A stretch of 64,000 bases of DNA, taken from a virus. The translations under genes were made by a program, and so were the position numbers. Positions 1,132 through 51,162 of this stretch are shown piece by piece; position 1 is the stretch's first letter, and the number at the start of each line of letters is the position of its first letter. The notes below the pieces were generated by a model. The model did not search any database and was not told the origin of the DNA. It saw nothing but the letters and a program-made list of their open reading frames with translations. Where the stretch lies: IMG/VR virus record IMGVR_UViG_3300043395_002432, positions 1-64,000 of that record, one strand, 5' to 3'.

Positions 1132-2271
1132 TTAGCGGAGACCGCCCCCCATGAACCACGCCTTCGCCGCTGCTGTGACGTCGCCTGCGACCTGCTTCCA
1201 AGTCAGGCCACCCGCCTCCATCTCCAGCTTCGACTCCTTCTCGACGTCGGCCATGACCGCCTTGAGGAAGGGGCCGATCCCCTTCATGGAACGATCTCCG
1301 CCGACCTGCTGGAGCATCTGCTCGCAGCGGGCTGGGGTGACGAACATGGTGGCGAACTCGCTCACGCCAGCGGGCTTCTCGACCAGGGTCTTGACGGCAG
1401 CCGACGACGCCTTGACGCGGTGCTGCTCACCCTTCGCCTTGAAGCTCAGGCGGCGGAACACGGTCGTCCGCATGGCGACGAAGACCTCGTCGGCGTCCTC
1501 GTCGATCTTGAACGTCCGATCCTCCATCTCTGCGATCCCGGTCGGGTAGAAGACCAGACCCTCGCCCGCACCAAGTGCCGTCCCGTCGCTGATCGACGCG
1601 ACGTAGGGATCGACCTTCTCGATCTTCTCGATCTCGGCGTTGATCTTCTCGATCTCGGCGTTGGTCGAGGCGACGTTGACGAGGTTCAGGCGCACGCTCA
1701 GGTTCCCGTCCGCGAACTCGTACCAGGGGAGGACGCGCATGGGGAAGGGGTTCTCACCCTGCGGCTGGTCGGCGTTCGCCTTGATCCAGTCGAGGAACTT
1801 CTGGATCTGATCCGGCTCCACCAAGAGCAGGTCGTGAGGCTCGTCGTCCTCGTCGGGCTTGATCACCCGAATGGCGAAGACGTAGAACGCCGGGGGGAGC
1901 TTGGTGAGCGAGACGCCTCGCTGAATGCTGCCCCCCGCCCACTCGCCATAGATCACGACGACCGTCCCCTCCGGGTTGGTGATGCCGAGCGACAGCCCTG
2001 AAGACGCGAACGCTCGTGCGAAGCCGTAGTTATCGGCTTCGACGCTGACGTCGTTGCTCCGCGACTGCAGAGAGACGCTCCCGTCCGGGTTCAGCCGGAT
2101 CGCGGCATTGGTGCCGTGGAGCTTGATCTTGGCCTTGAAGGCCACCTCCTTGTCGAGCGGGAGGCCGATCCGCCGCACGTTGCCGAGGGTATGCTCCAGC
2201 CCCTCGATGCTGGGCCACGGGACGTGTCCCTTGGGCATGGTCTGAAGACGCGACTCGTCTGGGATGAACAT
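1132..2271 (-). CDS. RNA ligase, Rnl2 family
   Basis: nucleotidyltransferase motifs KLHGTN (I), YGEWAG (III), FYVFAI (IIIa), GEGLVF (IV), FKAK (V). Confidence 0.85.
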   Translation of the reverse strand: MFIPDESRLQTMPKGHVPWPSIEGLEHTLGNVRRIGLPLDKEVAFKAKIKLHGTNAAIRLNPDGSVSLQSRSNDVSVEADNYGFARAFASSGLSLGITNPEGTVVVIYGEWAGGSIQRGVSLTKLPPAFYVFAIRVIKPDEDDEPHDLLLVEPDQIQKFLDWIKANADQPQGENPFPMRVLPWYEFADGNLSVRLNLVNVASTNAEIEKINAEIEKIEKVDPYVASISDGTALGAGEGLVFYPTGIAEMEDRTFKIDEDADEVFVAMRTTVFRRLSFKAKGEQHRVKASSAAVKTLVEKPAGVSEFATMFVTPARCEQMLQQVGGDRSMKGIGPFLKAVMADVEKESKLEMEAGGLTWKQVAGDVTAAAKAWFMGGGLR

Positions 2272-10739: not shown

Positions 10740-10741
10740 AA

Positions 10742-10826
10742 TGAGACGGGCAGGAGTCGAACCTGCGTCCTTCAGCGATTGAATCCGAAGATTCTCACTG
10801 GCGCTCTACCACTGAGCTACCGCCCC
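10742..10826 (-). ncRNA. tRNA-like RNA, extended anticodon arm capped by C(UUCG)G
   Basis: canonical D/T arms; CAGTGA-GAATC-TTCG-GATTC-AA-TCGCTG. Confidence 0.8.
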
Positions 10827-10829
10827 ATA

Positions 10830-11926: not shown

Positions 11927-12001
11927 AAGGGGATGCAGGATTCTCTACGACCTGCGATCAGAGGGTCAGAACCTCTTGCCTTACCGCTTGGCTAATCCCC
12001 T
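11927..12001 (-). tRNA. tRNA-Gln(CTG) with enlarged 11-nt T-loop
   Basis: AGAGG-TTCTGAC-CCTCT; T-arm GCAGG-TCGTAGAGAAT-CCTGC; paralogue of preceding Gln. Confidence 0.7.
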
Positions 12002-12781: not shown

Positions 12782-12918
12782 CGCACCACCTCGACGCGCT
12801 GCACACGCTGCGGAGGAGCGTAGGTGTCAGGGTTGTAGAGCATGTAAAGCCATGCACCAACACCCAGAAGGATGATGAAGATCGCACCAAGCGCCTTCGC
12901 GGTCTCACCAGCAGACAT
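12778..12918 (-). CDS. small single-TM protein
   Basis: MSAGETAKALGAIFIILLGVGAWLY; GAGGGG RBS. Confidence 0.5.
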   Translation of the reverse strand: MSAGETAKALGAIFIILLGVGAWLYMLYNPDTYAPPQRVQRVEVVR

Positions 12919-12930
12919 TGTCCCCTCGAA

Positions 12931-13002
12931 CGGCCCGACCTGGATTTGAACCAGGGACACCCCGATTAACAGTCGGATGCTCTACCACTGAGCTATCGGG
13001 CC
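12931..13002 (-). tRNA. tRNA-Asn(GTT)
   Basis: TCCGA-CTGTTAA-TCGGG. Confidence 0.9.
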
Positions 13003-13006
13003 AAAT

Positions 13007-13089
13007 TGGATCGGCAAGGAATCGAACCTTGATTGTTCCGTAGAACGGCTGGGTTACAGCCAGCCTGCCCGCCCACGAGCCACCGATCC
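13007..13089 (-). tRNA. tRNA-Tyr(GTA)
   Basis: GCTGG-CTGTAAC-CCAGC; variable arm; short D-loop. Confidence 0.8.
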
Positions 13090-13092
13090 GCA

Positions 13093-13181
13093 TGAAGCGT
13101 GAAGGAATCGAACCTCCCATGCGAGGAGCGACCTCGCGTTCGGCTTCGCGCCGAACCCCCACCCCAGGTGGGCTACGCCTC
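13093..13181 (-). ncRNA. non-canonical type-II tRNA-like RNA with 6-bp D-stem
   Basis: CCCACC-TGG-GGTGGG D-arm; GTTCGGC-GCGAA-GCCGAAC; long variable arm; GGTTCGATTCC. Confidence 0.7.
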
Positions 13182-13186
13182 AAAAG

Positions 13187-13272
13187 TGAGAGGGGAAGGA
13201 TTCGAACCTCCTGATCAGCTCCCGCTGAAGCTGGTGTACCGCCAGCCCCTACCCCAGGCAGGGTTCCCTCTC
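13187..13272 (-). ncRNA. non-canonical tRNA-like RNA, 7-bp D-stem, loop CG-GTA-CA (Tyr-like, no U33)
   Basis: CCCTGCC-TGG-GGTAGGG; GCTGG-CGGTACA-CCAGC; TCAGC-GGGA-GCTGA variable arm. Confidence 0.7.
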
Positions 13273-13275
13273 ATA

Positions 13276-13347
13276 TGGCCAAGGCCGGAATCGAACCAGC
13301 GCATCCCGATTTTCAGTCGGGCGCTCTACCTACTGAGCTACAAGGCC
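13276..13347 (-). tRNA. tRNA-Phe(GAA)
   Basis: CCCGA-CTGAAAA-TCGGG; two U-U mismatches in acceptor. Confidence 0.8.
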
Positions 13348-13351
13348 AAAT

Positions 13352-13453
13352 TCTCAGGTGCAGGAATTGAACCTGCCACTTCGCTCGCCCGAAGGCGGGG
13401 GACGACGCCCCTGATCTCAACGATCCCTGTGTTACCGCTACACCAACCTGAGA
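13352..13453 (-). ncRNA. tRNA-like RNA with three hairpins replacing anticodon/variable region
   Basis: CTCAGGT/ACCTGAG, D-arm GTGT/ACAC, GATC-GTTGA-GATC, GGGG-CGTCGT-CCCC, CGCC-TTCG-GGCG, T-arm. Confidence 0.7.
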
Positions 13454-13527
13454 TATCCCCAGCAGGTCTTGAACCTGCCCCTGGCGCGTGACTTTATGCG
13501 CCCGCTCTACCTCTAAGCTACGGGGAT
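13454..13527 (-). ncRNA. tRNA-like RNA with 10-nt anticodon loop
   Basis: GGCGC-ATAAAGTCAC-GCGCC; intact acceptor, D and T arms. Confidence 0.7.
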
Positions 13528-13607
13528 CGCCTTCACCCCTCCAAGATAGCCCCGAGAAGCCTGCTCGGGAAGCCCCACATGGGGGGCTTGACACGTCCTT
13601 GACGAAT

Positions 13608-13846
13608 TCGGCATGGAGGGAATCGAACCCCCGTCCTTCAGAGCCTTACGCTTTCCAGGGGTAGCTTCCCCCTCCTTCAAAGTCTCTGCCTGAGCTACTT
13701 GGGGCGGCTTCTTAGGGCGGCTCATCAAGGCTTCTTGCGAGGCGTCAGGCTTCCCCACCAAGTGAGGGCGGTTCCCCGTCTGAGACGGATGCGCTAACTT
13801 TGAAAGAATCCAGTAAGGATGCCTTCTTCCACTGAATTACATGCCG
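13608..13846 (-). ncRNA. tRNA-scaffolded 239-nt RNA (tmRNA-like architecture)
   Basis: CGGCATG/CATGCCG acceptor, GGACGGGGGTTCGATTCCCTC T-arm, ~165-nt structured insert. Confidence 0.65.
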
Positions 13847-13848
13847 AC

Positions 13849-13911
<63 letters not shown>

Positions 13912-13921
<10 letters not shown>

Positions 13922-14151
13922 TTGGTGCGTTGGTTCTTTGTCAGAAGGTAGCAGTGATACGCCCGAACCCACATATGCCTGGAGTAGGTGGGCAATGTTC
14001 TGGCCCTCACCCAACGACGAGCCATCTTCGTCATGAGCTTGCGCCTCGTCGCGTAGGGCATCTTCTTGGTGGCGACCCAATACCAGCCACAGTAGTAGAG
14101 CGGTTCACGCTCCTCAATCTTCTTTCGAATCTCTGACCGCTTGATCCGCAT
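13912..14151 (-). CDS. small basic hypothetical protein
   Basis: MRIKRSE..., GAGGTG RBS. Confidence 0.5.
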
Positions 14152-14161
14152 TGCTTCACCT

Positions 14162-14725
14162 CTAAGCGAGGATAACCTTGCGGATCGGAACAAGCCCCCT
14201 GAGCGTCCCTACGGGGAGCCGATGCTTCGGCACGAAGGACGTCCAAGCGTAGTGAAAGCTTCCCTCGCGGCCCTTCAGGCGCTCTCGGATCTTGGTGTGC
14301 AGCGCTGCAAAGAGCAGACTCGCCAGACCCCGGCCCCGACAGCGCGGCAACGTGTAGAAGTTTGGTGCGATGAGCAGCGAACGAAGCTCCTCTCCCCGCC
14401 AGAGATCTGGTTCGTTGAGGTAGCTGTCACCCACGCAGATCGACACCGGGACAGAGCCTTGCAGCATGAGCGTCGACGGATAGCTCCACCCCTCGTAGCC
14501 CTCCGAACGCACCAAGGAGAAGACAGCCTCCAGATTCATCCTCTGGCAGCGAAGAGCGTCCGCACCAGGGATCGAGAGAAGGGACTTGAGTGCTGGCGCG
14601 TAGAGGATGCGATAGCCCCAGGGGGAAGCGCATTCCTCTGTAGAGAGTGAGGTCTTCGGCCCCTGATACCAGATCCGATCAGTAGGCACGGCTGAACCGA
14701 GAGCGCGGAACCTGCTGCTCTGCAT
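14162..14725 (-). CDS. GNAT-family acetyltransferase (start uncertain, possibly GTG at 14689)
   Basis: motif A: FYTLPRCRGRGLASLLF. Confidence 0.6.
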   Translation of the reverse strand: MQSSRFRALGSAVPTDRIWYQGPKTSLSTEECASPWGYRILYAPALKSLLSIPGADALRCQRMNLEAVFSLVRSEGYEGWSYPSTLMLQGSVPVSICVGDSYLNEPDLWRGEELRSLLIAPNFYTLPRCRGRGLASLLFAALHTKIRERLKGREGSFHYAWTSFVPKHRLPVGTLRGLVPIRKVILA

Positions 14726-15149
14726 CCCACACAGCCTCCTCGGGGAACGCCGACACGATCCGCCGTCGCACCAACGAATTCGGAACCCGAACCACTGCCC
14801 GCTTGGTGCAGAAGCCCAACGCAGTCGCCGCTTCCACTACGCCACCAGAACGTGAGACCCCAGCCTTACAGGCCGCCACCACGTTCAGACCCGCCTCTCG
14901 AGCCGACAACAGGAATAACGAAATCGAATTCGCCTGCTCCTCTGTGATCGCAAGATCCTCCTCGGGATCGTCAACGTCGAAGAAGCACTCCACCAAGGTG
15001 GTGGCCCAATCGGCACGAAGGATCTCCTCCACCTCAGGCTCAGGAATGCCGTCATGGATCACCAAGAGCGCACAGCCCGAAGGCTCAAGCCCAAGCTCAC
15101 GCGCACGACGCAACGCGATCATGCGCGGCACATTCACAGCGATCATCAA
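14679..15149 (-). CDS. PTP/DSP-like phosphatase (CX5R), paralogue of 11161-11700
   Basis: VVAACKAGVSRSGGV; FFDVD acid loop; PNSLV. Confidence 0.75.
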   Translation of the reverse strand: MMIAVNVPRMIALRRARELGLEPSGCALLVIHDGIPEPEVEEILRADWATTLVECFFDVDDPEEDLAITEEQANSISLFLLSAREAGLNVVAACKAGVSRSGGVVEAATALGFCTKRAVVRVPNSLVRRRIVSAFPEEAVWDAEQQVPRSRFSRAY

Positions 15150-15159
15150 CGCACCTCAA

Positions 15160-15255
15160 TGGGAGGGGTCGGATTTGAACCGACGACCTTGCCTTCTACG
15201 CGGTCATGACATGAATTGCGTAGAAAGCACGCTCTACCAAATGAGCTACCCTCCC
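15160..15255 (-). ncRNA. tRNA-like RNA with 12-bp extended anticodon stem
   Basis: TGCTTTCTACGC/GCGTAGAAGGCA enclosing TCAT-GTC-ATGA; canonical D/T arms. Confidence 0.8.
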
Positions 15256-15261
15256 TTGAAA

Positions 15262-15341
15262 TAGGGGAAAGAGGACTTGAACCTCCGACCTCACACCGCG
15301 AAGCGTCAGGCGTGCGCTCTAACCAACTGAGCTACTCCCCC
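15262..15341 (-). ncRNA. tRNA-like RNA with 13-nt anticodon loop
   Basis: CACGC-CTGACGCTTCGCG-GTGTG; body resembles Ile/Val tRNA. Confidence 0.7.
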
Positions 15342-15478
15342 AAAAACCGCCTCGTCAAGGTGCGCTTCACCTCCTGAAGGATGTCGTCTCGCACCAACGT
15401 GCGCCTCATCTCCTCCAAAAGCTCAGAGGTGCGACGCCGACGCTCGTTATACACTTTCGCTTCTCTCATGACTCCTCA

Positions 15479-15551
15479 TGGGAAAGGCTGGATTCGAACC
15501 AGCACGAGGCACATTCACCATGCCCGCCCTGACCAATTGAGCAACTTTCCC
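15479..15551 (-). ncRNA. tRNA-like RNA, loop GG-TGA-AT (no Y32/U33, short variable arm)
   Basis: GGCAT-GGTGAAT-GTGCC; perfect acceptor and T arm. Confidence 0.7.
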
Positions 15552-15553
15552 GA

Positions 15554-15630
15554 GGGGGAGGGCCGGACTCGAACCGGCTACGCAATGCGCGGGATTGCTC
15601 CCAAGTAATGCGTTTCCTAACTACCTCCCT
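15554..15630 (-). ncRNA. tRNA-like RNA, reduced D-arm, GCAA-capped arm
   Basis: GGGA-GCAA-TCCC; GCCGG-TTCGAGT-CCGGC; GGGAGG/CCTCCC. Confidence 0.6.
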
Positions 15631-15652
15631 GATCCACCTTCCTCTCGAAGAT

Positions 15653-15726
15653 TTGCGGGAGTGGGATTTGAACCCACGACCTGCAGGGTATGAACCTACC
15701 GAGCTGCCTGACTGCTCTATCCCGCG
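15653..15726 (-). tRNA. initiator-type tRNA-fMet(CAT)
   Basis: C1-A72 mismatch, CGCGGG start, GTAGG-TTCATAC-CCTGC. Confidence 0.8.
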
Positions 15727-15727
15727 A

Positions 15728-15801
15728 TGGAGACAACGGGATTCGAACCCGTGACCCTCTGCTTGCAAAGCAGATGCTCGTTCCAACTGAGCTATGTCCC
15801 C
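15728..15801 (-). tRNA. tRNA-Ala(TGC)
   Basis: TCTGC-TTTGCAA-GCAGA; G3-U70. Confidence 0.9.
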
Positions 15802-15805
15802 GAAA

Positions 15806-15878
15806 TGGATATGGTGAGAATTGAACTCAACACCTCCGGTGCCACAAACCGGCGTCCTACCCTTGGACGACATATCCC
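15806..15878 (-). tRNA. tRNA-His(GTG)
   Basis: CCGGT-TTGTGGC-ACCGG; encoded G-1. Confidence 0.8.
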
Positions 15879-15894
15879 ACAATCGGCACTTTGA

Positions 15895-15967
15895 TGAGCG
15901 CGGTGGGCATCGAACCCACGACCTGGAGATTAAGAGTCTCCTGCTCTACCGGCTGAGCTACGCGCCC
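15895..15967 (-). tRNA. tRNA-Lys(CTT)
   Basis: GGAGA-CTCTTAA-TCTCC. Confidence 0.9.
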
Positions 15968-15985
15968 GGTTCTCTCTTCCCCCTC

Positions 15986-16046
15986 AATCTACGCACCGCA
16001 ACCCTCTCGGGAAGGAGCGCGGGAGGGGCTTGACACGTTCTTGACA
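15986..16046 (-). promoter_or_regulatory. promoter driving tRNA sub-array
   Basis: minus strand TGTCAAGAACGTGTCAAG, 37 nt, TAGATT. Confidence 0.65.
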
Positions 16047-16092
16047 TGCCCCCGTTGCTTGACTCCGCTTGGTGCGACGAAGTCGACTTCGT

Positions 16093-16368
16093 TCACTCAC
16101 GCGCCGAAGCGATCTCTCTCGCCTGCTCAAGCTCTCGCTCCATATGGCGGCGAATCCACCGCATGAGCAAGATCCCCTTCTCCTCCGCACCAAAGGTCGG
16201 CTGCGACCCCTGAGCATTCTTGGTGTCCTCCACGGGGATTGGGAAGAGCCAGCCGTCGAAGGTCTTGTACCAAAGCGCATCCTCTCGAAAGAACGCGAAG
16301 ACCGCCTTCTCCTTCACCCGATCCCGACAGAGGGCGTTCAACTGCTGCACCTCATGCTTGCGTTCCAT
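16093..16368 (-). CDS. phage hypothetical protein
   Basis: LWYKT...FPIPVEDT...EKGILLMRWIR; AGGAG RBS. Confidence 0.7.
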   Translation of the reverse strand: MERKHEVQQLNALCRDRVKEKAVFAFFREDALWYKTFDGWLFPIPVEDTKNAQGSQPTFGAEEKGILLMRWIRRHMERELEQAREIASARE

Positions 16369-16381
16369 CTCTTCTCCTGAT

Positions 16382-16472
16382 TGGGTAGAGTACGATTCGA
16401 ACGAACACCTCCGAGGTACGCCCCCGTAGGAGGGCGGCTTCCACAGCGTCATTCCACTTTGACTATCTACCC
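16382..16472 (-). ncRNA. tRNA-like RNA, extended arm capped by C(UACG)G
   Basis: GGGTAGA/TCTACCC; GTCA/TGAC D-stem; CGCCCTCC-TACG-GGGGCG. Confidence 0.7.
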
Positions 16473-16475
16473 GAA

Positions 16476-16570
16476 TAGGGAGTGAAGGATTCGAACCTTC
16501 GTCATGGGCAGCGCGCCACCCATGAACCTGCACTGTTCGCAGGCGCTTTCAACCACTCAGCCAACCCCCC
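16476..16570 (-). ncRNA. type-II tRNA-like RNA, loop GA-ACA-GT (no U33), 10-bp variable stem
   Basis: CCTGC-GAACAGT-GCAGG; TCATGGGTGG-CGCG-CTGCCCATGA. Confidence 0.7.
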
Positions 16571-16641
16571 GAAAGTGTCTGCGGCAACGGAGACGCGAAG
16601 ATGAACCGCGCAAGAATCCGCAAACACTATAGCTTTGCTAT

Positions 16642-16714
16642 AGCCACCAGAGGGATTTGAACCCCCGACCCGCTGTTTACAAAACAGCCGCTCTGGCCCC
16701 TGAGCTACGGTGGC
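16642..16714 (-). tRNA. tRNA-Thr(TGT)
   Basis: GCTGT-TTTGTAA-ACAGC. Confidence 0.9.
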
Positions 16715-16718
16715 ACCA

Positions 16719-16799
16719 TGGGGTCTGCGGGACTTGAACCCGCACGCTTGTGGCAGGAGATTTTGAGGCTCCCGTGTCTGCCAATTCCACCAAGACCCC
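16719..16799 (-). tRNA. tRNA-Leu(CAA)
   Basis: loop CTCAAAA; Leu-type D-arm GGTGGAATTGGCAGACAC; variable arm. Confidence 0.85.
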
Positions 16800-16802
16800 A
16801 AG

Positions 16803-16873
16803 CAGGCCGGGAGGGATTCGAACCCTCACAAGGTGCTTTTGGAGAGCGCCCGACTCATCCTGCGCTCCAGCCT
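16803..16873 (-). tRNA. tRNA-Trp(CCA), irregular D-arm
   Basis: GCGCT-CTCCAAA-AGCAC; AGGCTGG/CCGGCCT-G73. Confidence 0.7.
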
Positions 16874-16876
16874 ATA

Positions 16877-16938
16877 CAGGGGGGAAGGGATTCGAACCCA
16901 AGAACTTGACGCTCTTCCGCCGACACCCGCCCGCCCCT
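16877..16938 (-). ncRNA. minimal/degenerate tRNA-like RNA (62 nt)
   Basis: AGGGG/CCCCT acceptor, GGGTTCGAATCCC T-arm, no clear D-arm. Confidence 0.45.
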
Positions 16939-16942
16939 ATGA

Positions 16943-32414: not shown

Positions 32415-33101
32415 TCACCTCCAGTAAGAGACCACCAAGACCCAATCCGTCGTATCTACCCAGGGGTCATACTCGTCGAGCGTGATCGTGTCCCCGCTGA
32501 TCTCGTAGCCCGAGGTCAGCTCCAATCCGTTCAGTGTCACCCTCGGAACGCAGTTCGCATGCGGGGTCTCGCTTAGCTCCCACTCCCATGTCTCGTTGTC
32601 GAGCGTGAATGAATCCTGCTGATCTTGTCGATAAGTACCGGCACTTTCAAACGTGACCGTATCGCCATCCCGAACCACGACCCCGTTGCGAAAGTAGACC
32701 GCATCCCCCGAACGATACGCCACCAAGACGTTCCCCGTCGTTGGTGCGACCTGCCGAACGACCGTAGGGGTCACGTCCCTTGCTCCAGAGGAGGAGCGAG
32801 TCACGCTCATGACCCACATGGCCCCACTTGGCCGCAACGTCACCGGGGAATGATCCGTCGTGATTCGCTGCTGCGCCCCCGTCGACGGCGTCACCAAGAA
32901 GAGGTCGTCCGTGAAGGTCAGCTCCCCCGTAGAGGCTGTAAACGAGATCGATCCCCCACCGTAAAGGAAGAGATTACGATCCTCCACAGAAGCATTGAGC
33001 CAAGCATCGATCTGCTCCACCATCGAGCGAAAAATCGGATGCCATTGCTGATCCGCTGACGACGGATACTGGATCGAGAGCCGGGGGCTGGATGCGGGCA
33101 T
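32415..33101 (-). CDS. putative virion structural protein
   Basis: within baseplate operon; C-terminal VTLNGLEL...YEISG.TITL beta module. Confidence 0.55.
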   Translation of the reverse strand: MPASSPRLSIQYPSSADQQWHPIFRSMVEQIDAWLNASVEDRNLFLYGGGSISFTASTGELTFTDDLFLVTPSTGAQQRITTDHSPVTLRPSGAMWVMSVTRSSSGARDVTPTVVRQVAPTTGNVLVAYRSGDAVYFRNGVVVRDGDTVTFESAGTYRQDQQDSFTLDNETWEWELSETPHANCVPRVTLNGLELTSGYEISGDTITLDEYDPWVDTTDWVLVVSYWR

Positions 33102-43408: not shown

Positions 43409-45211
43409 TCAGGCGTCGAAGTCGTCGCTCTGATACGAGATCAGGGGAGAGAGCGGCGCGGGCGAAGGCTTCACAACCTCCAGCGAGCGAGCCAGACGCG
43501 CCCGATCCCGACCGAACGCCTGCATTGCCTTGATCTGATCGCCCATAGTCTTCGAGAGCGGGCGTGTCGCGTTGGCCGCTTGTGTTAGATCCGCCACCGT
43601 CAGATCCCGCATGCCGTCGTCAAAGGCGATCAGCACGGCTTCCTGCACCACGCCCTCGATCTCAGCACCAGAGAAGCCCTCGGTCGCCTCGAGGATCTGC
43701 CCCACCGAATTCGAATTCGTGATCGCGTCAGGATTGCGTCCCGTCTTCCGAATGTGAATCCCGAGGATCTCCTTTCGCTCGTCCGCGTTAGGGAGGTCGA
43801 CGAAGAAGATCTCGTCGAAGCGCCCCTTTCGCAGCAGCTCAGGCGGGAGCTTGCTGATATCGTTCGCCGTCGCCATGACGAACACAGGATCGCGCTTGTC
43901 ATTCATCCATGACAGGATCGTCCCCATTACACGCGACATCGTCCCGCCGTCCGACGACCCGCTGGAGGCGGCACCGCTCAGCCCCTTCTCGATCTCGTCG
44001 AGCCAGAGAACGCAAGGGGAAAGCTTCTCAGCGAGAGCCAGGGTCTTGCGGGTGTTTTCCTCGGAAGCCCCCACAAGCCCAGCGAAAAGCTGGCCCATGT
44101 CGAGGCGGAGACACGGCACCTCGAGGAGCGACGCGACGGCTGCGACGGAGGCGCTCTTGCCCGTTCCCGGTACACCAAGCATCAGCACCCCCTTCGGAGC
44201 CTTTACGCCGAACTTGAGCGCCTCGGGCGAGAACGCACGCTTTCTGATCCCGATCCACCGCTTGAATTCCCCCATGCCCCCGATCTCGGCCATCGGCTTC
44301 GGCGGGTAGAATGTGAGCATTCCGCCCTTCGAGATGGACTCGACCTTCGCCTTCGTGACCTCCGCGATCAGCTCCTTTGAGGGGTCTTCCGTCGCATTGC
44401 GGATCGCAATGCTGACGAAGTTCCGCATCTCCACAAGGGAGAGACCCTTGCATGCCGTCACCAATGCCGCGAGCTTGTCGGGTGCCTCGTAGGGAATGAC
44501 GACCGGGGACGTCGCCTTCGACTGGCGAAGGAGGCTGCTAAGCTGCTTGCGAAGCTCATCTGCCCCCGGCGTCCCAGGCTGAATGCGGAGCGCGTCAATG
44601 TCCAGCCCAGGGATTGACGCCTGCGTCTTAGCGTCGAGGAAGATCAGCGTCAGCCCCTGCGCCCGAAGCCGGAAGGTGAGGTCGCGCAATGCCCGCGCCT
44701 CTACCGCATGCTCCGCGACGTATCGCCAAGCGTCGAGAAACACGATCCATGGCATGCTGTTCTTGCCATAGCCCCGGAAGTCGAAAACGTCCCCGCTGGG
44801 CGACTCCTTCTCCTTGAGCGGCCCCTTGCTGATCAGGTTCGTCAGCGCGACGTCAATGTGGCCGAGGGCAGCCGCCAACTGGCGGATCGGCGCGTTGTTG
44901 AACAGCGCCGGGTTTTTGTACTGAACGACACGCTTGGTGGCGTCCGATTCCGAGATGCTCTCGGCCTTCATGATCGAGTGAGCCTCCACGGCGATCTCCG
45001 CATAGCTCCTCGCCTGCTGGAAGCCTTTGGTGGCAGTCCAGATCCAGAAGTCACGCCCCGTACCGAGGGCGGCGAGGCGGAGATCGCTGAGGTAGCGCAC
45101 CTCCTCTCGGGTCTCGACGCACACCATGCCGACGCGTGAGGCGAGGACAGCCTCGAGGTCGGCGGGAAGGAATCGAACCGGCGCATTAGGCTCGGCTTGC
45201 TGAATGCTCAT
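43409..45211 (-). CDS. Ycf46-like AAA+ ATPase
   Basis: GVPGTGKS, LDMGQLF..LVGASE, LWLDEIEK, LPPELLRKGRFDEIFFVDLP. Confidence 0.9.
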   Translation of the reverse strand: MSIQQAEPNAPVRFLPADLEAVLASRVGMVCVETREEVRYLSDLRLAALGTGRDFWIWTATKGFQQARSYAEIAVEAHSIMKAESISESDATKRVVQYKNPALFNNAPIRQLAAALGHIDVALTNLISKGPLKEKESPSGDVFDFRGYGKNSMPWIVFLDAWRYVAEHAVEARALRDLTFRLRAQGLTLIFLDAKTQASIPGLDIDALRIQPGTPGADELRKQLSSLLRQSKATSPVVIPYEAPDKLAALVTACKGLSLVEMRNFVSIAIRNATEDPSKELIAEVTKAKVESISKGGMLTFYPPKPMAEIGGMGEFKRWIGIRKRAFSPEALKFGVKAPKGVLMLGVPGTGKSASVAAVASLLEVPCLRLDMGQLFAGLVGASEENTRKTLALAEKLSPCVLWLDEIEKGLSGAASSGSSDGGTMSRVMGTILSWMNDKRDPVFVMATANDISKLPPELLRKGRFDEIFFVDLPNADERKEILGIHIRKTGRNPDAITNSNSVGQILEATEGFSGAEIEGVVQEAVLIAFDDGMRDLTVADLTQAANATRPLSKTMGDQIKAMQAFGRDRARLARSLEVVKPSPAPLSPLISYQSDDFDA

Positions 45212-50222: not shown

Positions 50223-50465
50223 TCATCTGCCCCGAACCGTCTCTTGGTGCGATTGAAGCCAGCCTTCTACCGCCTCGCTCGAAGCGAAGAGGTTGCGTAT
50301 CGTTGCGTTCCCTTTGTTCTCACTTACGACCTGAAGGATCAGAGAGACCCATTCCTCGGGCCTAAGTGGCTTCCCCGTTCGGGGATTCAGGGGGGTGTCT
50401 CTGAGTGCATTCAGGGTGTCCTCGGGGAGGACGAGAATGCTCAGGGCGCTTGGGGCTAAAGCCAC
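50223..50465 (-). CDS. hypothetical protein
   Basis: 80-aa ORF, GAGGA RBS. Confidence 0.5.
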   Translation of the reverse strand: MALAPSALSILVLPEDTLNALRDTPLNPRTGKPLRPEEWVSLILQVVSENKGNATIRNLFASSEAVEGWLQSHQETVRGR

Positions 50466-50926
50466 GAATCCTCCTCTGGCTCAGGCTCGTCGAAGTACAG
50501 GAAGGTGTCCCCCTCGACGTCGACGGGAGAGGGGTCAGCCGGGGCTGCCTGAATGTTCCCCTCAGGGGAATGGCCCTTGTAGAGAACCTGACTGCTGATC
50601 CGGTGAATCATGGAGATCGAAATCTCGTGCAAGAGCGCCCGAAGATCCGTGATTCGATTCGACCGAAGCTCGACCTCAGTCCCTCGCATGATCAGGATCT
50701 CCGCCACGCCAGGATCGGGCTGGACGATCCTCACCCCGTAGTCCAGATGAATCTCCATCCCGCTTGGTGCAGGAACGCACGAGGAGAAGACGTTGCGCCC
50801 CAGGATCTCCGCCAGCGTCGTGATCGTCCAGCCAAGATTGCCGTCGTGGATGAGGCTCTTGGGCGAATTCGACTTCGTTGGAACGGCAATCTGCGTGGGA
50901 GGCGGTGGAGGGGGGCGCTCGTGCAT
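50456..50926 (-). CDS. hypothetical protein (start uncertain)
   Basis: ORF between neighbours. Confidence 0.5.
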   Translation of the reverse strand: MHERPPPPPPTQIAVPTKSNSPKSLIHDGNLGWTITTLAEILGRNVFSSCVPAPSGMEIHLDYGVRIVQPDPGVAEILIMRGTEVELRSNRITDLRALLHEISISMIHRISSQVLYKGHSPEGNIQAAPADPSPVDVEGDTFLYFDEPEPEEDSWL

Positions 50927-50967
50927 CTCCGCCCGCTCACGTTCGAGATCCCGAGGTGCGCGCCGTG

Positions 50968-51162
50968 TCAAGAGATCTCCTTGAAGCCAGGACAGCCCCC
51001 TGGGGTCTTGGTGGGGAAGCCCTCCTCGTCGAAACGACAGCTCAGCCTCCAGGCGTTGACCTCGGGCTTGCGGGCGATCTCGCACGTCAGGCTCTTCGTC
51101 CACGTCGCGTAGATACACTCGGTGCAATTCTTGGCGTGCAGGATCGGCTTCTCGTCAGGCAT
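50968..51162 (-). CDS. small Cys-rich protein
   Basis: CTEC...C...C...CPGF; GGAGG RBS. Confidence 0.6.
   Translation of the reverse strand: MPDEKPILHAKNCTECIYATWTKSLTCEIARKPEVNAWRLSCRFDEEGFPTKTPGGCPGFKEIS

What the first reader, a model, noticed from the sequence alone, without database searches (positions are those of the whole stretch)
13608..13846. 239-nt tRNA-framed RNA with a pseudoknotted insert (mini-tmRNA-like)
Seen: acceptor and T-arm enclose ~165 nt containing helices CCTTAC/GTAAGG, TTCAAAGT/ACTTTGAA and GCCTGA/TCAGGC, plus a crossing GTAGCT/AGCTAC. The 3' end GGACGGGGGTTCGATTCCC resembles tmRNA. An internal frame after TTAGC reads GCA...ASVSDGEPPSLGGEA-stop. However, it lacks G3-U70 and is ~100 nt shorter than typical tmRNA, and the CAGAGACT (group I R-like) element has no downstream S partner. 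Inference: a divergent tmRNA or SmpB decoy, or a new tRNA-scaffolded ncRNA.
Basis: partly seen in the sequence, partly recalled or inferred. Interest (0 to 1): 0.7.

Follow-up and report, generated by a model that had tools for sequence, protein, structure and literature searches.

The report
Oversized leucine-tRNA-shaped phage RNA gene
This is a leucine-type tRNA gene in a phage tRNA cluster whose codon-reading loop is replaced by about 163 extra bases, so it is neither a tmRNA nor a self-splicing intron but one more of the unexplained tRNA-shaped RNAs that phages carry, or possibly a decaying gene.

Summary
The 239-nt unit (minus strand, 13846->13608) is real. It has a perfect 7-bp acceptor stem, a canonical T arm, A73 and a 6-bp anticodon stem (CCUUAC/GUAAGG). 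It starts 2 nt after tRNA-Ala inside a 25-tRNA array of an uncultured freshwater phage.

The frame is leucine-type: all 3 IMG/VR tRNAs that share its acceptor and T-loop are tRNA-Leu(UAG), and it keeps a class II variable arm. A 163-nt insert replaces the anticodon loop.

It is not a tmRNA. It has G3-C70, Rfam scores it 19.5 bits against a cut-off of 47, ARAGORN makes no call, and a 2-nt deletion in a 96%-identical strain breaks the 'tag' frame. No group I or other Rfam family matches.

The insert's helices and folding energy are at chance level. It has no relative in any collection searched, and it contains copies of tRNA fragments.

The closest known thing is phage T5 RNA1, annotated 'tRNA-like stable RNA with unknown functions', which has the same layout. 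This scan has reported such leucine-tRNA shells before on other DNA.

Best reading (about 0.5): a non-decoding, tRNA-processed and possibly leucine-chargeable stable RNA. The main rival (about 0.28) is a disrupted, decaying tRNA-Leu gene. There are no expression data.

The parts
13608..13846 (-). Whole unit, 239 nt: leucine-type tRNA shell with an insert in place of the anticodon loop
   Evidence: Sequence read. It sits in register in the tRNA array, 2 nt after tRNA-Ala 13849-13921. ARAGORN finds it only with introns allowed and a lowered threshold.
13840..13846 (-). Acceptor stem 5' strand CGGCAUG (RNA 1-7)
   Evidence: 7 of 7 Watson-Crick pairs with 13609-13615. Pair probability is 0.99 without any constraint.
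13819..13839 (-). U8, A9 and the D region (RNA 8-28): an 11-nt class II-type D loop CAGUGGAAGAA holding A14 and G18G19. The D stem is degenerate (AUU against GGC: one A.C and two U.G).
   Evidence: Read and aligned by eye and by MAFFT to three tRNA-Leu(UAG). Strain L002 has A20U, giving the more usual GGUAGA.
13813..13818 (-). Anticodon stem 5' strand CCUUAC (RNA 29-34)
   Evidence: 6 of 6 pairs with GUAAGG at 13644-13649. It competes with an alternative hairpin, RNA 10-16/33-39, which has probability 0.96 in the unconstrained ensemble.
13650..13812 (-). Insert of 163 nt (RNA 35-197) where the 7-nt anticodon loop should be
   Evidence: No Rfam family matches at E<=10. Folding z-score is -0.28. 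No similar DNA was found in any collection searched.
13797..13806 (-). Insert helix, 5' strand (RNA 41-50), pairing with RNA 164-173
   Evidence: 10 bp including one G.U (I5). Probability is 0.99-1.00 in both ensembles. The strain change A170G keeps the pair as U.G.
13674..13683 (-). Insert helix, 3' strand (RNA 164-173)
   Evidence: Same as above.
13776..13788 (-). Insert hairpin CCGUC-UCA-GACGG (RNA 59-71)
   Evidence: Probability 0.99. In L002 and X6 the loop loses 2 nt and has A66G; a shorter hairpin remains, but any reading frame across it shifts.
13694..13719 (-). Tandem 13-nt repeat in the insert (RNA 128-153). Its last copy runs into an 11-mer identical to the 5' part of the neighbouring tRNA-Ala.
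   Evidence: the repeat finder D3 and D4.
13657..13685 (-). Internal copy of the shell's own variable arm and T-stem 5' strand, followed by a hairpin (RNA 162-190)
   Evidence: the repeat finder D2: 18 nt, 83% identical to 13629-13646. In the unconstrained fold it competes with the true T stem, which then has probability 0.00.
13644..13649 (-). Anticodon stem 3' strand GUAAGG (RNA 198-203)
13633..13643 (-). Class II-type variable arm CUCUGAAGGAC (RNA 204-214): a 3-bp stem UCU/GGA with a GAA loop
   Evidence: Read. Comparable to UCUCGAAAGGGGUG in the tRNA-Leu(UAG) of L012.
13616..13632 (-). T arm GGGGG-UUCGAUU-CCCUC (RNA 215-231)
   Evidence: This is the only part that the Rfam tmRNA model aligns. 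The strain change U225G falls at variable T-loop position 59.
13608..13615 (-). Acceptor stem 3' strand CAUGCCG plus discriminator A73; no CCA is encoded

Best explanation
The unit is a leucine-type (class II) tRNA gene of a phage tRNA array in which the 7-nt anticodon loop is replaced by a 163-nt insert. It therefore cannot read a codon.

Most likely pathway (inferred, not shown):
1. It is transcribed with its neighbours.
2. RNase P cuts it at its 5' end.
3. It is trimmed after A73 and given CCA.
4. It persists as a stable tRNA-shaped RNA of about 240 nt, as phage T5 RNA1 does.

The shell keeps every element that a published LeuRS study names as needed for charging: A73, U8-A14, G18-U55, G19-C56 and a variable arm. 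That study found the anticodon arm dispensable for charging. The RNA may therefore even accept leucine.

Its job would then be done by the tRNA body, as a decoy or sponge for a tRNA-binding host or defence protein, or by the displayed insert. Which of the two is unknown.
For: Shown:
- The frame is intact. The acceptor is 7 of 7 bp, the T arm and T loop are canonical, the anticodon stem is 6 bp, the variable arm is 11 nt, and the discriminator is A73.
- The unit begins 2 nt after tRNA-Ala, with the same spacing as its neighbours.
- With the insert removed in silico, ARAGORN at its default threshold calls a tRNA in 325 of 748 deletion variants.
- The frame is leucine-type. A pattern built from its acceptor and T loop found 3 IMG/VR tRNAs, and 3 of 3 are tRNA-Leu(UAG) in phage tRNA arrays.
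- The LeuRS determinants named in the abstract of PMC2377443 can all be read in the shell. The abstract of PMC11028032 (seen in the listing) says LeuRS does not read the anticodon bases.
- Phage T5 RNA1 (NC_005859 30501-30644) is annotated 'tRNA-like stable RNA with unknown functions'. It folds with the same layout: a leucine-type D arm, an anticodon stem enclosing a 47-nt insert, a long variable arm and a T arm.
- The engineered 'tRNA scaffold' shows that E. coli processes and keeps RNAs inserted in place of the anticodon stem-loop, 'at least up to 250-nt long' (PMC3753655, passages read).
- In strain X4 the unit is more conserved than the neighbouring ORF: 2 differences in 379 nt (13524-13902) against 32 differences plus 22 gapped letters in 648 nt (14053-14700) (table 8).
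- All five strain changes lie in predicted loops or keep a pair.
- The same array holds other tRNA bodies with non-decoding anticodon arms.
Against: - No RNA data of any kind exist for this unit.
- Against strain L002 the unit is no better conserved than its surroundings. It diverges by 2.4-2.9%, against 2.5% for the spacer downstream and 0% for the 240 nt upstream.
- With only five changes, their compatibility with the structure is not significant (my estimate is p about 0.1).
- The insert folds no better than shuffles, and its helices are at chance number.
- The insert looks like a patchwork: a tandem 13-mer, an 11-mer shared with tRNA-Ala, and a copy of the shell's own variable arm and T stem.
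- The D stem is degenerate, and one extra base lies between the D stem and the anticodon stem.
- The tRNA-constrained fold (-79.7 kcal/mol) is 12.3 kcal/mol worse than the free MFE (-92.0). In the free fold the T arm and the anticodon stem have probability 0.00. T5 RNA1, by contrast, folds tRNA-like without constraint.
- No relative of the insert, and no second oversized unit with this acceptor, was found anywhere.
Confidence: 0.5

Rival explanations
1. Decaying gene: a tRNA-Leu gene was disrupted by illegitimate recombination or slippage inside a fast-changing tRNA array. The insert is junk, and the RNA, if made, has no function.
For: - The insert is built partly from tRNA fragments and repeats (D2-D4), has chance-level folding, and has no relative elsewhere.
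- The D stem is degenerate.
- The alternative fold beats the tRNA fold by 12.3 kcal/mol.
- Divergence from L002 equals the local background.
- The array is in flux between strains that are 92-96% identical. Whole tRNAs are gained or lost. tRNA-Ala(CGC) has a 4-nt deletion in L002. tRNA-Ile(GAU) is canonical in L002 but has a 13-nt loop in the window.
Against: - Acceptor, T arm, anticodon stem, variable arm and all tertiary-contact bases are intact in all four variants seen (window, L002, X4, X6). No change hits a shell helix.
- In X4 the unit is far better conserved than the adjacent ORF.
- Phage T5 makes a stable RNA of the same design.
Confidence: 0.28
2. Intron: the insert is removed from the precursor, either by proteins (an endonuclease plus the phage's RNA ligase) or by an unrecognised ribozyme, to give a decoding tRNA. 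Removing RNA 37-194, for example, would give tRNA-Leu(GAG).
For: - The array has only Leu(CAA) as a canonical leucine tRNA.
- Some deletions give leucine anticodons that ARAGORN accepts, for example 5' part to 36 joined to 195 gives Leu(GAG).
- The phage encodes an RNA ligase family protein (PF09414, 50.4 bits) at 1132-2271.
- Lak megaphage tRNAs carry 'enigmatic introns' (PMC6784885, passages read).
Against: - There is no group I or other ribozyme match at E<=10.
- No junction gives a loop with U33 and a purine at position 37. The Leu(GAG) product would have C37. Junctions that satisfy group I rules (U before the 5' site, G at the intron end) give a GGA anticodon with U37 on a leucine body (read).
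- ARAGORN's own intron solution needs a mismatched anticodon stem, a 3-nt variable loop and a lowered threshold.
- The two junctions are not complementary, so there is no bulge-helix-bulge motif.
- No insert-free allele was seen in 4 runs or in L002.
- The neighbouring unit 15261-15342 shows loop replacement rather than an excisable insert, when compared with its canonical allele in L002.
- No RtcB is found in the record, which is 68% complete.
Confidence: 0.15
3. Mini-tmRNA or SmpB decoy: the RNA enters stalled ribosomes and tags proteins, or it binds SmpB.
For: - The 3' end GGAC-GGGGGUUCGAUUCCC resembles tmRNA. Rfam's tmRNA model aligns it (19.5 bits).
- blastn finds 83% identity over 41 nt to the acceptor piece of Stenotrophomonas phage tmRNAs, at E=0.8.
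- The D stem is weak, as in a tmRNA tRNA-like domain.
Against: - Position 3:70 is G-C, so the alanine identity pair is absent.
- The Rfam score is 19.5 against a cut-off of 47, and the permuted model scores 12.4 against 47.
- ARAGORN makes no tmRNA call at the unit, even at 80% threshold: 7 weak 'permuted' calls lie elsewhere in the array and none overlaps it.
- The tag frame is shifted by a 2-nt deletion in L002 and X6.
- The unit keeps an anticodon stem and a class II variable arm, which tmRNA lacks.
- The same tools detect real phage tmRNAs: ARAGORN in L013; ARAGORN and Rfam at 118.5 and 92.1 bits in L016.
Confidence: 0.02

Closest known systems
Phage T5 RNA1 (NC_005859 30501-30644) and RNA2 (32959-33083), annotated 'tRNA-like stable RNA with unknown functions'
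   Same: - It lies inside a phage tRNA cluster.
- It has an acceptor stem and a canonical T arm.
- It has a leucine-type D loop and a long variable arm.
- Its anticodon stem is kept but encloses an oversized insert instead of a 7-nt loop.
   Different: - There is no sequence similarity.
- The T5 RNA1 insert is 47 nt; this one is 163 nt.
- T5 RNA1 has a good D stem and folds tRNA-like without constraint. This unit has a degenerate D stem and a competing fold.
- T5 RNA1 is recorded as a stable RNA. This unit has no expression data.
[quoted passage not shown]
   Same: They are non-tRNA stable RNAs encoded among phage tRNA genes, and their roles are unknown (PMC3014915, passage read; PMC9697503, passages read).
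   Different: I did not fetch or compare their sequences. Whether they have a leucine-type shell was not tested here.
'Enigmatic' introns of Lak megaphage tRNAs (Devoto et al. 2019, PMC6784885)
   Same: These are phage tRNA genes interrupted by inserts with no recognised ribozyme. The inserts are conserved between strains (passages read).
   Different: There, alleles with and without the insert exist and a decoding tRNA is predicted after removal. Here no insert-free allele and no canonical product were found. Their Supplementary Table 6 could not be seen.
tmRNA, including phage-encoded ones such as Stenotrophomonas phage vB_SmaM_Bhz51 ssrA, OR797040
   Same: A tRNA-like acceptor and T-arm domain frames a long non-tRNA segment, and the motif GGAC precedes the T stem.
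   Different: This unit has no G3-U70, no conserved tag frame and no model match. It keeps an anticodon stem and a class II variable arm.
Engineered 'tRNA scaffold' for recombinant RNA (Ponchon and Dardel method; PMC3753655)
   Same: The acceptor, T and D arms are kept and the anticodon stem-loop is replaced by cargo. The chimera is processed and protected in E. coli.
   Different: The scaffold is man-made and is built on tRNA-Lys3 or tRNA-Met rather than a leucine shell. It shows feasibility of biogenesis only, not function.
Group I intron of cyanobacterial and plastid tRNA-Leu(UAA) (recalled, not fetched)
   Same: A tRNA-Leu gene is interrupted in the anticodon loop by an insert of a few hundred bases or less.
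   Different: There is no RF00028 match at E<=10. The insert has no guide sequence near its 5' end, no terminal G after a P7 helix, and no U before a splice site that would give a leucine anticodon.

Membership tests
tmRNA | G3-U70 wobble pair in the acceptor stem (alanine identity) | tested here: not met
   Position 3:70 is G-C (CGGCAUG/CAUGCCG), read.
tmRNA | Match to a tmRNA covariance model or an ARAGORN tmRNA call | tested here: not met
   RF00023 scores 19.5 bits against a cut-off of 47, with only the T-arm region aligned. RF04321 scores 12.4 against 47. ARAGORN makes no call at the unit, and none at 80% threshold. Controls: phage tmRNAs are found in L013 and L016.
tmRNA | Conserved resume codon and tag reading frame | tested here: not met
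   The frame ASVSDGEPPSLGGEA-stop exists. However, L002 and X6 carry a 2-nt deletion inside it (window 13782-13783), which shifts the frame.
Group I intron | Match to the group I covariance model (RF00028) | tested here: not met
   RF00028 is not among the 12 matches at E<=10 in 591 nt, nor among the 5 matches in 181 nt of insert.
Group I intron | P3-P7-P8 core with a terminal G after P7, and a U before the 5' splice site, giving a canonical tRNA | tested here: not met
   The only complement of CAGAG is CUCUG, which lies inside the variable arm and is followed directly by the T arm; its probability is 0.00. No junction gives a canonical leucine anticodon loop.
Decoding tRNA-Leu | 7-nt anticodon loop with U33, a leucine anticodon and a purine at 37 | tested here: not met
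   163 nt lie between the two strands of the anticodon stem. ARAGORN and the Rfam tRNA model do not call the unit at default settings.
Decoding tRNA-Leu | Leucine-type shell: A73, class II variable arm, U8-A14, G18G19 with U55C56 | tested here: met
   All are read. 3 of 3 IMG/VR tRNAs with the same acceptor and T-loop pattern are tRNA-Leu(UAG). The determinants are as listed in the abstract of PMC2377443.
Phage tRNA-like stable RNAs of the T5 RNA1 type | Encoded inside a phage tRNA cluster, in register with tRNA genes | tested here: met
   It lies 2 nt after tRNA-Ala, on the same strand as 25 tRNAs. The record is an IMG/VR virus contig with tail and baseplate genes.
Phage tRNA-like stable RNAs of the T5 RNA1 type | Intact acceptor stem, T arm and anticodon stem, with an oversized insert in place of the anticodon loop | tested here: met
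   for this unit; for T5 RNA1.
Phage tRNA-like stable RNAs of the T5 RNA1 type | Well-formed leucine-type D arm and a tRNA-like fold as the favoured structure | tested here: inconclusive
   The D loop is of the right kind, but the D stem is one A.C and two U.G. The free MFE prefers a non-tRNA fold by 12.3 kcal/mol. Tertiary contacts are not modelled by the program.
Phage tRNA-like stable RNAs of the T5 RNA1 type | Accumulates as a stable RNA in infected cells | not testable with these tools
   No RNA run is listed for this DNA.
Archaeal-type (bulge-helix-bulge) tRNA intron | Two 3-nt bulges flanking a 4-bp helix formed by the two junctions | tested here: not met
   The junction sequences (around RNA 34-40 and 189-198) share the direct repeat CUGGA and are not complementary.

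The most novel reading that the evidence does not exclude
The unit is a working member of a phage-wide class of leucine-tRNA 'chassis' RNAs. The host's RNase P, CCA enzyme and LeuRS would treat it as tRNA-Leu, because none of them reads the anticodon. The 163-nt middle, or the charged body itself, would then occupy a host tRNA-binding or tRNA-cleaving defence protein. The internal copy of the variable arm and T stem would let the RNA switch between a tRNA-like fold and a rod-like fold.
Probability: 0.25. Interest if true: 0.7.

Novelty: new member of a known kind. Interest (0 to 1): 0.35.

Why it matters
Standard tools skip this gene. ARAGORN and Rfam at default settings make no call, so phage tRNA clusters hold more RNA genes than their annotations show.

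tRNA-shaped stable RNAs have been recorded in phage T5 and T4 tRNA regions without any assigned function. This unit would be an unusually large example, at 239 nt. It also shows that the shell keeps exactly the features LeuRS needs, which suggests a concrete test: is it charged with leucine?

The matter is modest here. The kind is already known, this scan has reported it repeatedly on other DNA, and this copy has no relatives and no expression data. It may also be a decaying gene.

The report also settles that the unit is neither a tmRNA nor a group I intron.

Tried and rejected
Homologues of the unit or its insert. None was found.
- blastn (distant mode) of 13550-13930 against 50,697 phage records matched 47 records. 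All 30 rows I saw cover only the tRNA-Ala part.
- The unit alone at E<=1 matched 220 records. All 25 rows I saw cover only RNA 194-237, the 3' part of the shell.
- Exact words in IMG/VR: a 29-mer found 0. A 16-mer found 8 stretches, all chance matches of 16-28 nt; the longest lies in a coding-like repeat and no tRNA is nearby.
- A 23-mer in 185,579 species genomes found 0.
- The gapped pattern 'same acceptor and T loop with a 195-225-nt middle' found 0 in genomes and 0 in IMG/VR.
- A wider-gap version found 0 in the three phage records that hold the matching tRNA-Leu(UAG).
- There is no paralogue in the phage's own 139-kb record.

Related phages sought through proteins.
- Single-protein scans of IMG/VR with ORFs 14162-14725, 17577-18707 and 23561-24847 found nothing. 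A scan with alignment A1 also found nothing.
- The protein search found two relatives, P0001 (95% identity) and P0002 (74%).
- The metagenome scan found only L002, which corresponds to P0001.
- The contig of the more distant P0002 could not be fetched.
- tblastn of ORF 43409-45211 against phages gave only distant AAA-ATPase hits of at most 45% identity.

Expression. No RNA holder is listed among 24 runs. This says nothing about expression.

Strain data. No contig joins across the insert; the one joint listed (12995 to 13858, run X6, shorter side 22 letters) links conserved tRNA parts. Parts of the stretch have no cover in X4, X5 and X6.

Other checks.
- The promoter and terminator scan of 12800-14300 found 0 promoters and 2 terminator-like sites, against 1.3 expected. 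None lies in the unit.
- The insert is not tRNA-shaped. Its hairpin at RNA 174-190 follows the 3' strand of the 10-bp helix rather than preceding it, and its loop is not a T loop.
- The GGA and GAAGCC motifs are not clearly enriched (my rough count only).
- A 15-nt perfect complementarity between RNA 85-99 and the mRNA of ORF 50456-51127 (E=0.025 within the genome) lies inside a coding region and was not pursued.
- RtcB and T4 Rnl1 families are absent from the 68%-complete record. For Rnl1 the control rang nowhere, so that blank means nothing.
- Supplementary files of papers were not opened. Table S6 of PMC6784885 may bear on the comparison with Lak introns.
Full report
WHAT AND WHERE.
The window is the first 64 kb of a 139,496-bp IMG/VR virus contig, estimated 68% complete. 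It carries tail, baseplate and sliding-clamp genes. Its DNA is held by freshwater and river metagenome runs. On the minus strand between 10.4 and 17.2 kb lies an array of 25 ARAGORN tRNAs and 22 Rfam tRNA matches.

The finding is the minus-strand stretch 13846->13608. I number the RNA as index = 13847 - window position. It begins 2 nt after the last base of tRNA-Ala(CGC) (13849), the same tight spacing as the neighbouring genes.

THE OBSERVATION.
- The acceptor CGGCAUG/CAUGCCG is 7 of 7 Watson-Crick.
- The T arm is GGGGG-UUCGAUU-CCCUC.
- The discriminator is A, and no CCA is encoded.

What does not hold is that the insert is visibly structured or pseudoknotted beyond chance.
- The unit has 8 perfect helices of at least 6 bp, against 7.1 +/- 2.6 in 300 dinucleotide shuffles. 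43% of shuffles have as many, and 43% reach an 8-bp helix.
- The MFE z-score is -1.41 for the unit and -0.28 for the insert alone.

WHICH tRNA THE FRAME IS.
CCUUAC (29-34) and GUAAGG (198-203) sit where an anticodon stem belongs. The stem is followed by an 11-nt variable arm (CUCUGAAGGAC: stem UCU/GGA, loop GAA) and then by the T arm. That is class II architecture.

A pattern made of the acceptor strands and the T loop, with a tRNA-sized gap, found 3 places in IMG/VR. All 3 are tRNA-Leu(UAG) genes in phage tRNA arrays. The D loop (CAGUGGAAGAA) has the class II length and holds A14 and G18G19. The D stem, however, is only one A.C and two U.G.

The unit is therefore a leucine-type tRNA shell. 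163 nt (RNA 35-197, window 13812-13650) replace the 7-nt anticodon loop. When the insert is deleted in silico, ARAGORN at its default threshold calls a tRNA in 325 of 748 deletion variants. This confirms the frame. The 'anticodon' depends wholly on the junction chosen, and no junction gives a canonical leucine loop.

NOT A tmRNA.
- Position 3:70 is G-C.
- Rfam's tmRNA model scores 19.5 bits against a cut-off of 47 and aligns only the T-arm part. The permuted-tmRNA model scores 12.4 against 47.
- ARAGORN makes no tmRNA call at the unit, even at an 80% threshold. Its 7 weak 'permuted' calls all lie elsewhere in the array.
- The proposed tag frame is not conserved. L002, which is 92-96% identical across the array, and run X6 both lack 2 nt inside it.
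- The same tools do find true phage tmRNAs: a 362-nt one in L013 and a permuted one in a Stenotrophomonas phage at 118.5 and 92.1 bits.
- The weak blastn likeness of the unit's 3' end to that Stenotrophomonas phage tmRNA (41 nt, 83%, E=0.8) covers the T arm and the GGAC before it.

NOT A RECOGNISABLE INTRON.
- No group I model, nor any other ribozyme family, appears at E<=10.
- The R-like CAGAGACU pairs only through CAGAG/CUCUG. CUCUG is part of the variable arm and is followed at once by the T arm, so there is no room for a terminal G after P7. The pair has probability 0.00 in the tRNA-constrained ensemble.
- ARAGORN with introns allowed finds the unit only at a 90% threshold, as 'tRNA-Ala(GGC) with a 166-nt intron'. 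That solution has a mismatched anticodon stem and a 3-nt variable loop.
- The two junctions share a direct repeat (CUGGA at 34 and 189) and are not complementary, so there is no bulge-helix-bulge motif.
- No insert-free allele appears in four runs or in L002.

THE INSERT.
Under the tRNA constraint the model has these helices:
- a 10-bp helix (41-50/164-173), p 0.99;
- hairpins at 59-71 and 80-94;
- GCCUGA/UCAGGC, p 0.92;
- a weaker hairpin at 174-190, p 0.53.

The insert also holds three kinds of repeat:
- a tandem 13-mer (128-153);
- an 11-mer identical to the 5' part of the neighbouring tRNA-Ala;
- an 18-nt, 83% copy of the shell's own variable arm and T-stem strand.

That last copy competes with the real T stem. 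The free MFE (-92.0 kcal/mol) beats the tRNA-constrained fold (-79.7) by 12.3 kcal/mol, and in the free fold the T arm and anticodon stem have probability 0.00. The program ignores tertiary contacts and co-transcriptional folding, so this is a caution rather than a refutation.

STRAINS.
- In X4, 379 nt around the unit differ at 2 places. One is U225G at a variable T-loop position. The other is A170G, which turns a U-A pair into U.G. The next ORF shows 32 differences plus 22 gapped letters in 648 nt.
- In L002 and X6 the changes are A20U (L002 only), A57G, the 2-nt loss with A66G in a hairpin loop, and U225G.
- None of these changes breaks a modelled helix. With five events this is not significant.
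- Against L002 the unit (2.4-2.9% divergence) is no better kept than the spacer beside it (2.5%) or the 240 nt upstream (0%).

CONTEXT.
Many array members have normal acceptor, D and T arms but non-decoding anticodon arms: long rods capped by UUCG or GNRA loops, or 10-nt loops. The comparison with L002 shows that these regions change fast. tRNA-Ile(GAU) is canonical in L002, while the window's copy has a 13-nt loop that cannot be restored by deletion. The phage also encodes an RNA ligase family protein.

CLOSEST KNOWN.
- Phage T5's record annotates RNA1 and RNA2 as 'tRNA-like stable RNA with unknown functions' within its tRNA cluster. RNA1 folds as a leucine-type shell whose anticodon stem encloses a 47-nt insert, with a long variable arm and a T arm. 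That is the same layout as here.
- T4's RNAC and RNAD come from its tRNA region, and their roles are unknown (PMC3014915 and PMC9697503, passages read).
- Lak megaphage tRNAs carry 'enigmatic introns' (PMC6784885, passages read).
- Earlier reports of this scan describe leucine-tRNA shells with unrelated inserts in several other phages. I used them as leads. I tested only the leucine type of my own unit and the T5 precedent.

HOW IT MOST LIKELY WORKS.
Shown: an intact leucine-type tRNA frame that cannot decode, sitting in register in a tRNA operon.

Inferred: RNase P and 3' trimming release it and CCA is added. This is how E. coli treats engineered tRNA scaffolds that carry cargo instead of the anticodon stem-loop, which work 'at least up to 250-nt long' (PMC3753655, passages read).

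Inferred: it could be charged with leucine.
- The elements reported as critical for LeuRS are A73, U8-A14, G18-U55, G19-C56 and the variable arm. All are present here.
- The anticodon arm is reported dispensable for charging (abstract of PMC2377443).
- LeuRS does not read anticodon bases (abstract of PMC11028032, seen in the listing).

The function of the body or the insert is unknown. I favour a decoy or sponge role, but nothing here tests it.

I put 0.5 on a functional, non-decoding stable RNA, 0.28 on a disrupted and decaying tRNA-Leu gene, 0.15 on an intron removed by an unknown route, and 0.02 on anything tmRNA-like.

LIMITS.
- There are no RNA data.
- Only strain-level relatives were available.
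- Supplementary files of papers were not seen.

Noticed in passing
window 15261-15342 (-) versus L002 2142-2217: The same gene is a canonical tRNA-Ile(GAU) in strain L002 (loop CUGAUAA). In the window its loop is CUGACGCUUCGCG (13 nt, able to form a small capped hairpin), and two stem changes keep the pairing. The window form cannot be turned back by a simple deletion, so the loop was replaced rather than interrupted.
   Followed up: partly
window 11927-12001 (-) and 15554-15630 (-), versus L002: There is a reciprocal T-loop swap. The window has the 11-nt T loop (UCGA replaced by CGUAGAGA) in the tRNA-Gln(CUG)-like gene and a normal loop in 15554-15630. L002 has the reverse. Each strain therefore holds exactly one gene with the odd T loop, but in a different gene.
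   Followed up: no
window 15479-15551 (-) and 16382-16472 (-), versus L002: The capping loops of non-decoding anticodon arms differ sharply between strains while the stems are identical. One is GGUGA against GAAAG (4 of 5 bases). The other is CCCUCCUACGGGG against CCCUGGAAGGG.
   Followed up: no
window 13454-13527 (-): This is a tRNA with an aspartate-like anticodon arm but a 10-nt loop AUAAAGUCAC, that is GUC preceded by three extra bases. Rfam tRNA scores it 44.1 bits in the small search, and ARAGORN finds it only with introns allowed. No canonical tRNA-Asp is in the array.
   Followed up: no
window 10741-10827, 13092-13272, 13351-13453, 15160-15255, 16382-16570, 17019-17113 (-): These are further tRNA bodies of 85-103 nt whose anticodon arms are long rods or carry odd loops. 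15160-15255 has a 12-bp stem. 17019-17113 has a leucine-type D loop. 13351-13453 and 15160-15255 are identical in L002.
   Followed up: partly
window 13528-13607 (-): The 80-nt spacer after the unit holds two adjacent hairpins (AAGCCCC-loop-GGGGCUU and CCCGAG-loop-CUCGGG). The two changes in L002 both fall in the first loop.
   Followed up: no
window 1132-2271 (-): A 379-aa ORF matches the RNA_ligase family PF09414 (49-50 bits, above the cut-off). No RtcB is found in the record.
   Followed up: partly
window 13849-13921 (-) versus L002 3557-3625: tRNA-Ala(CGC) lacks 4 nt (GCUC) of its D stem in L002. This is either a broken gene in that strain or an assembly error.
   Followed up: no
L002 versus window 12900-17150: The array differs in gene content between strains that are 92-96% identical. 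L002 has an extra tRNA-Glu(CUC) and an extra 76-nt tRNA-Trp-like gene next to tRNA-Tyr, plus inserts of 166, 123 and 39 nt. It lacks 67 nt around the window's tRNA-Trp.
   Followed up: no
window 51007-51021: A 15-nt stretch is identical to RNA 85-99 of the unit, so the unit is complementary there to the mRNA of the minus-strand ORF 50456-51127. E=0.025 within the genome. It may be chance.
   Followed up: partly
L013 2772-3133 (IMG/VR provirus record): A phage-borne tmRNA (tag ANDNAIAYEAKAA) sits inside a tRNA array that also holds the tRNA-Leu(UAG) sharing this unit's acceptor stem.
   Followed up: no
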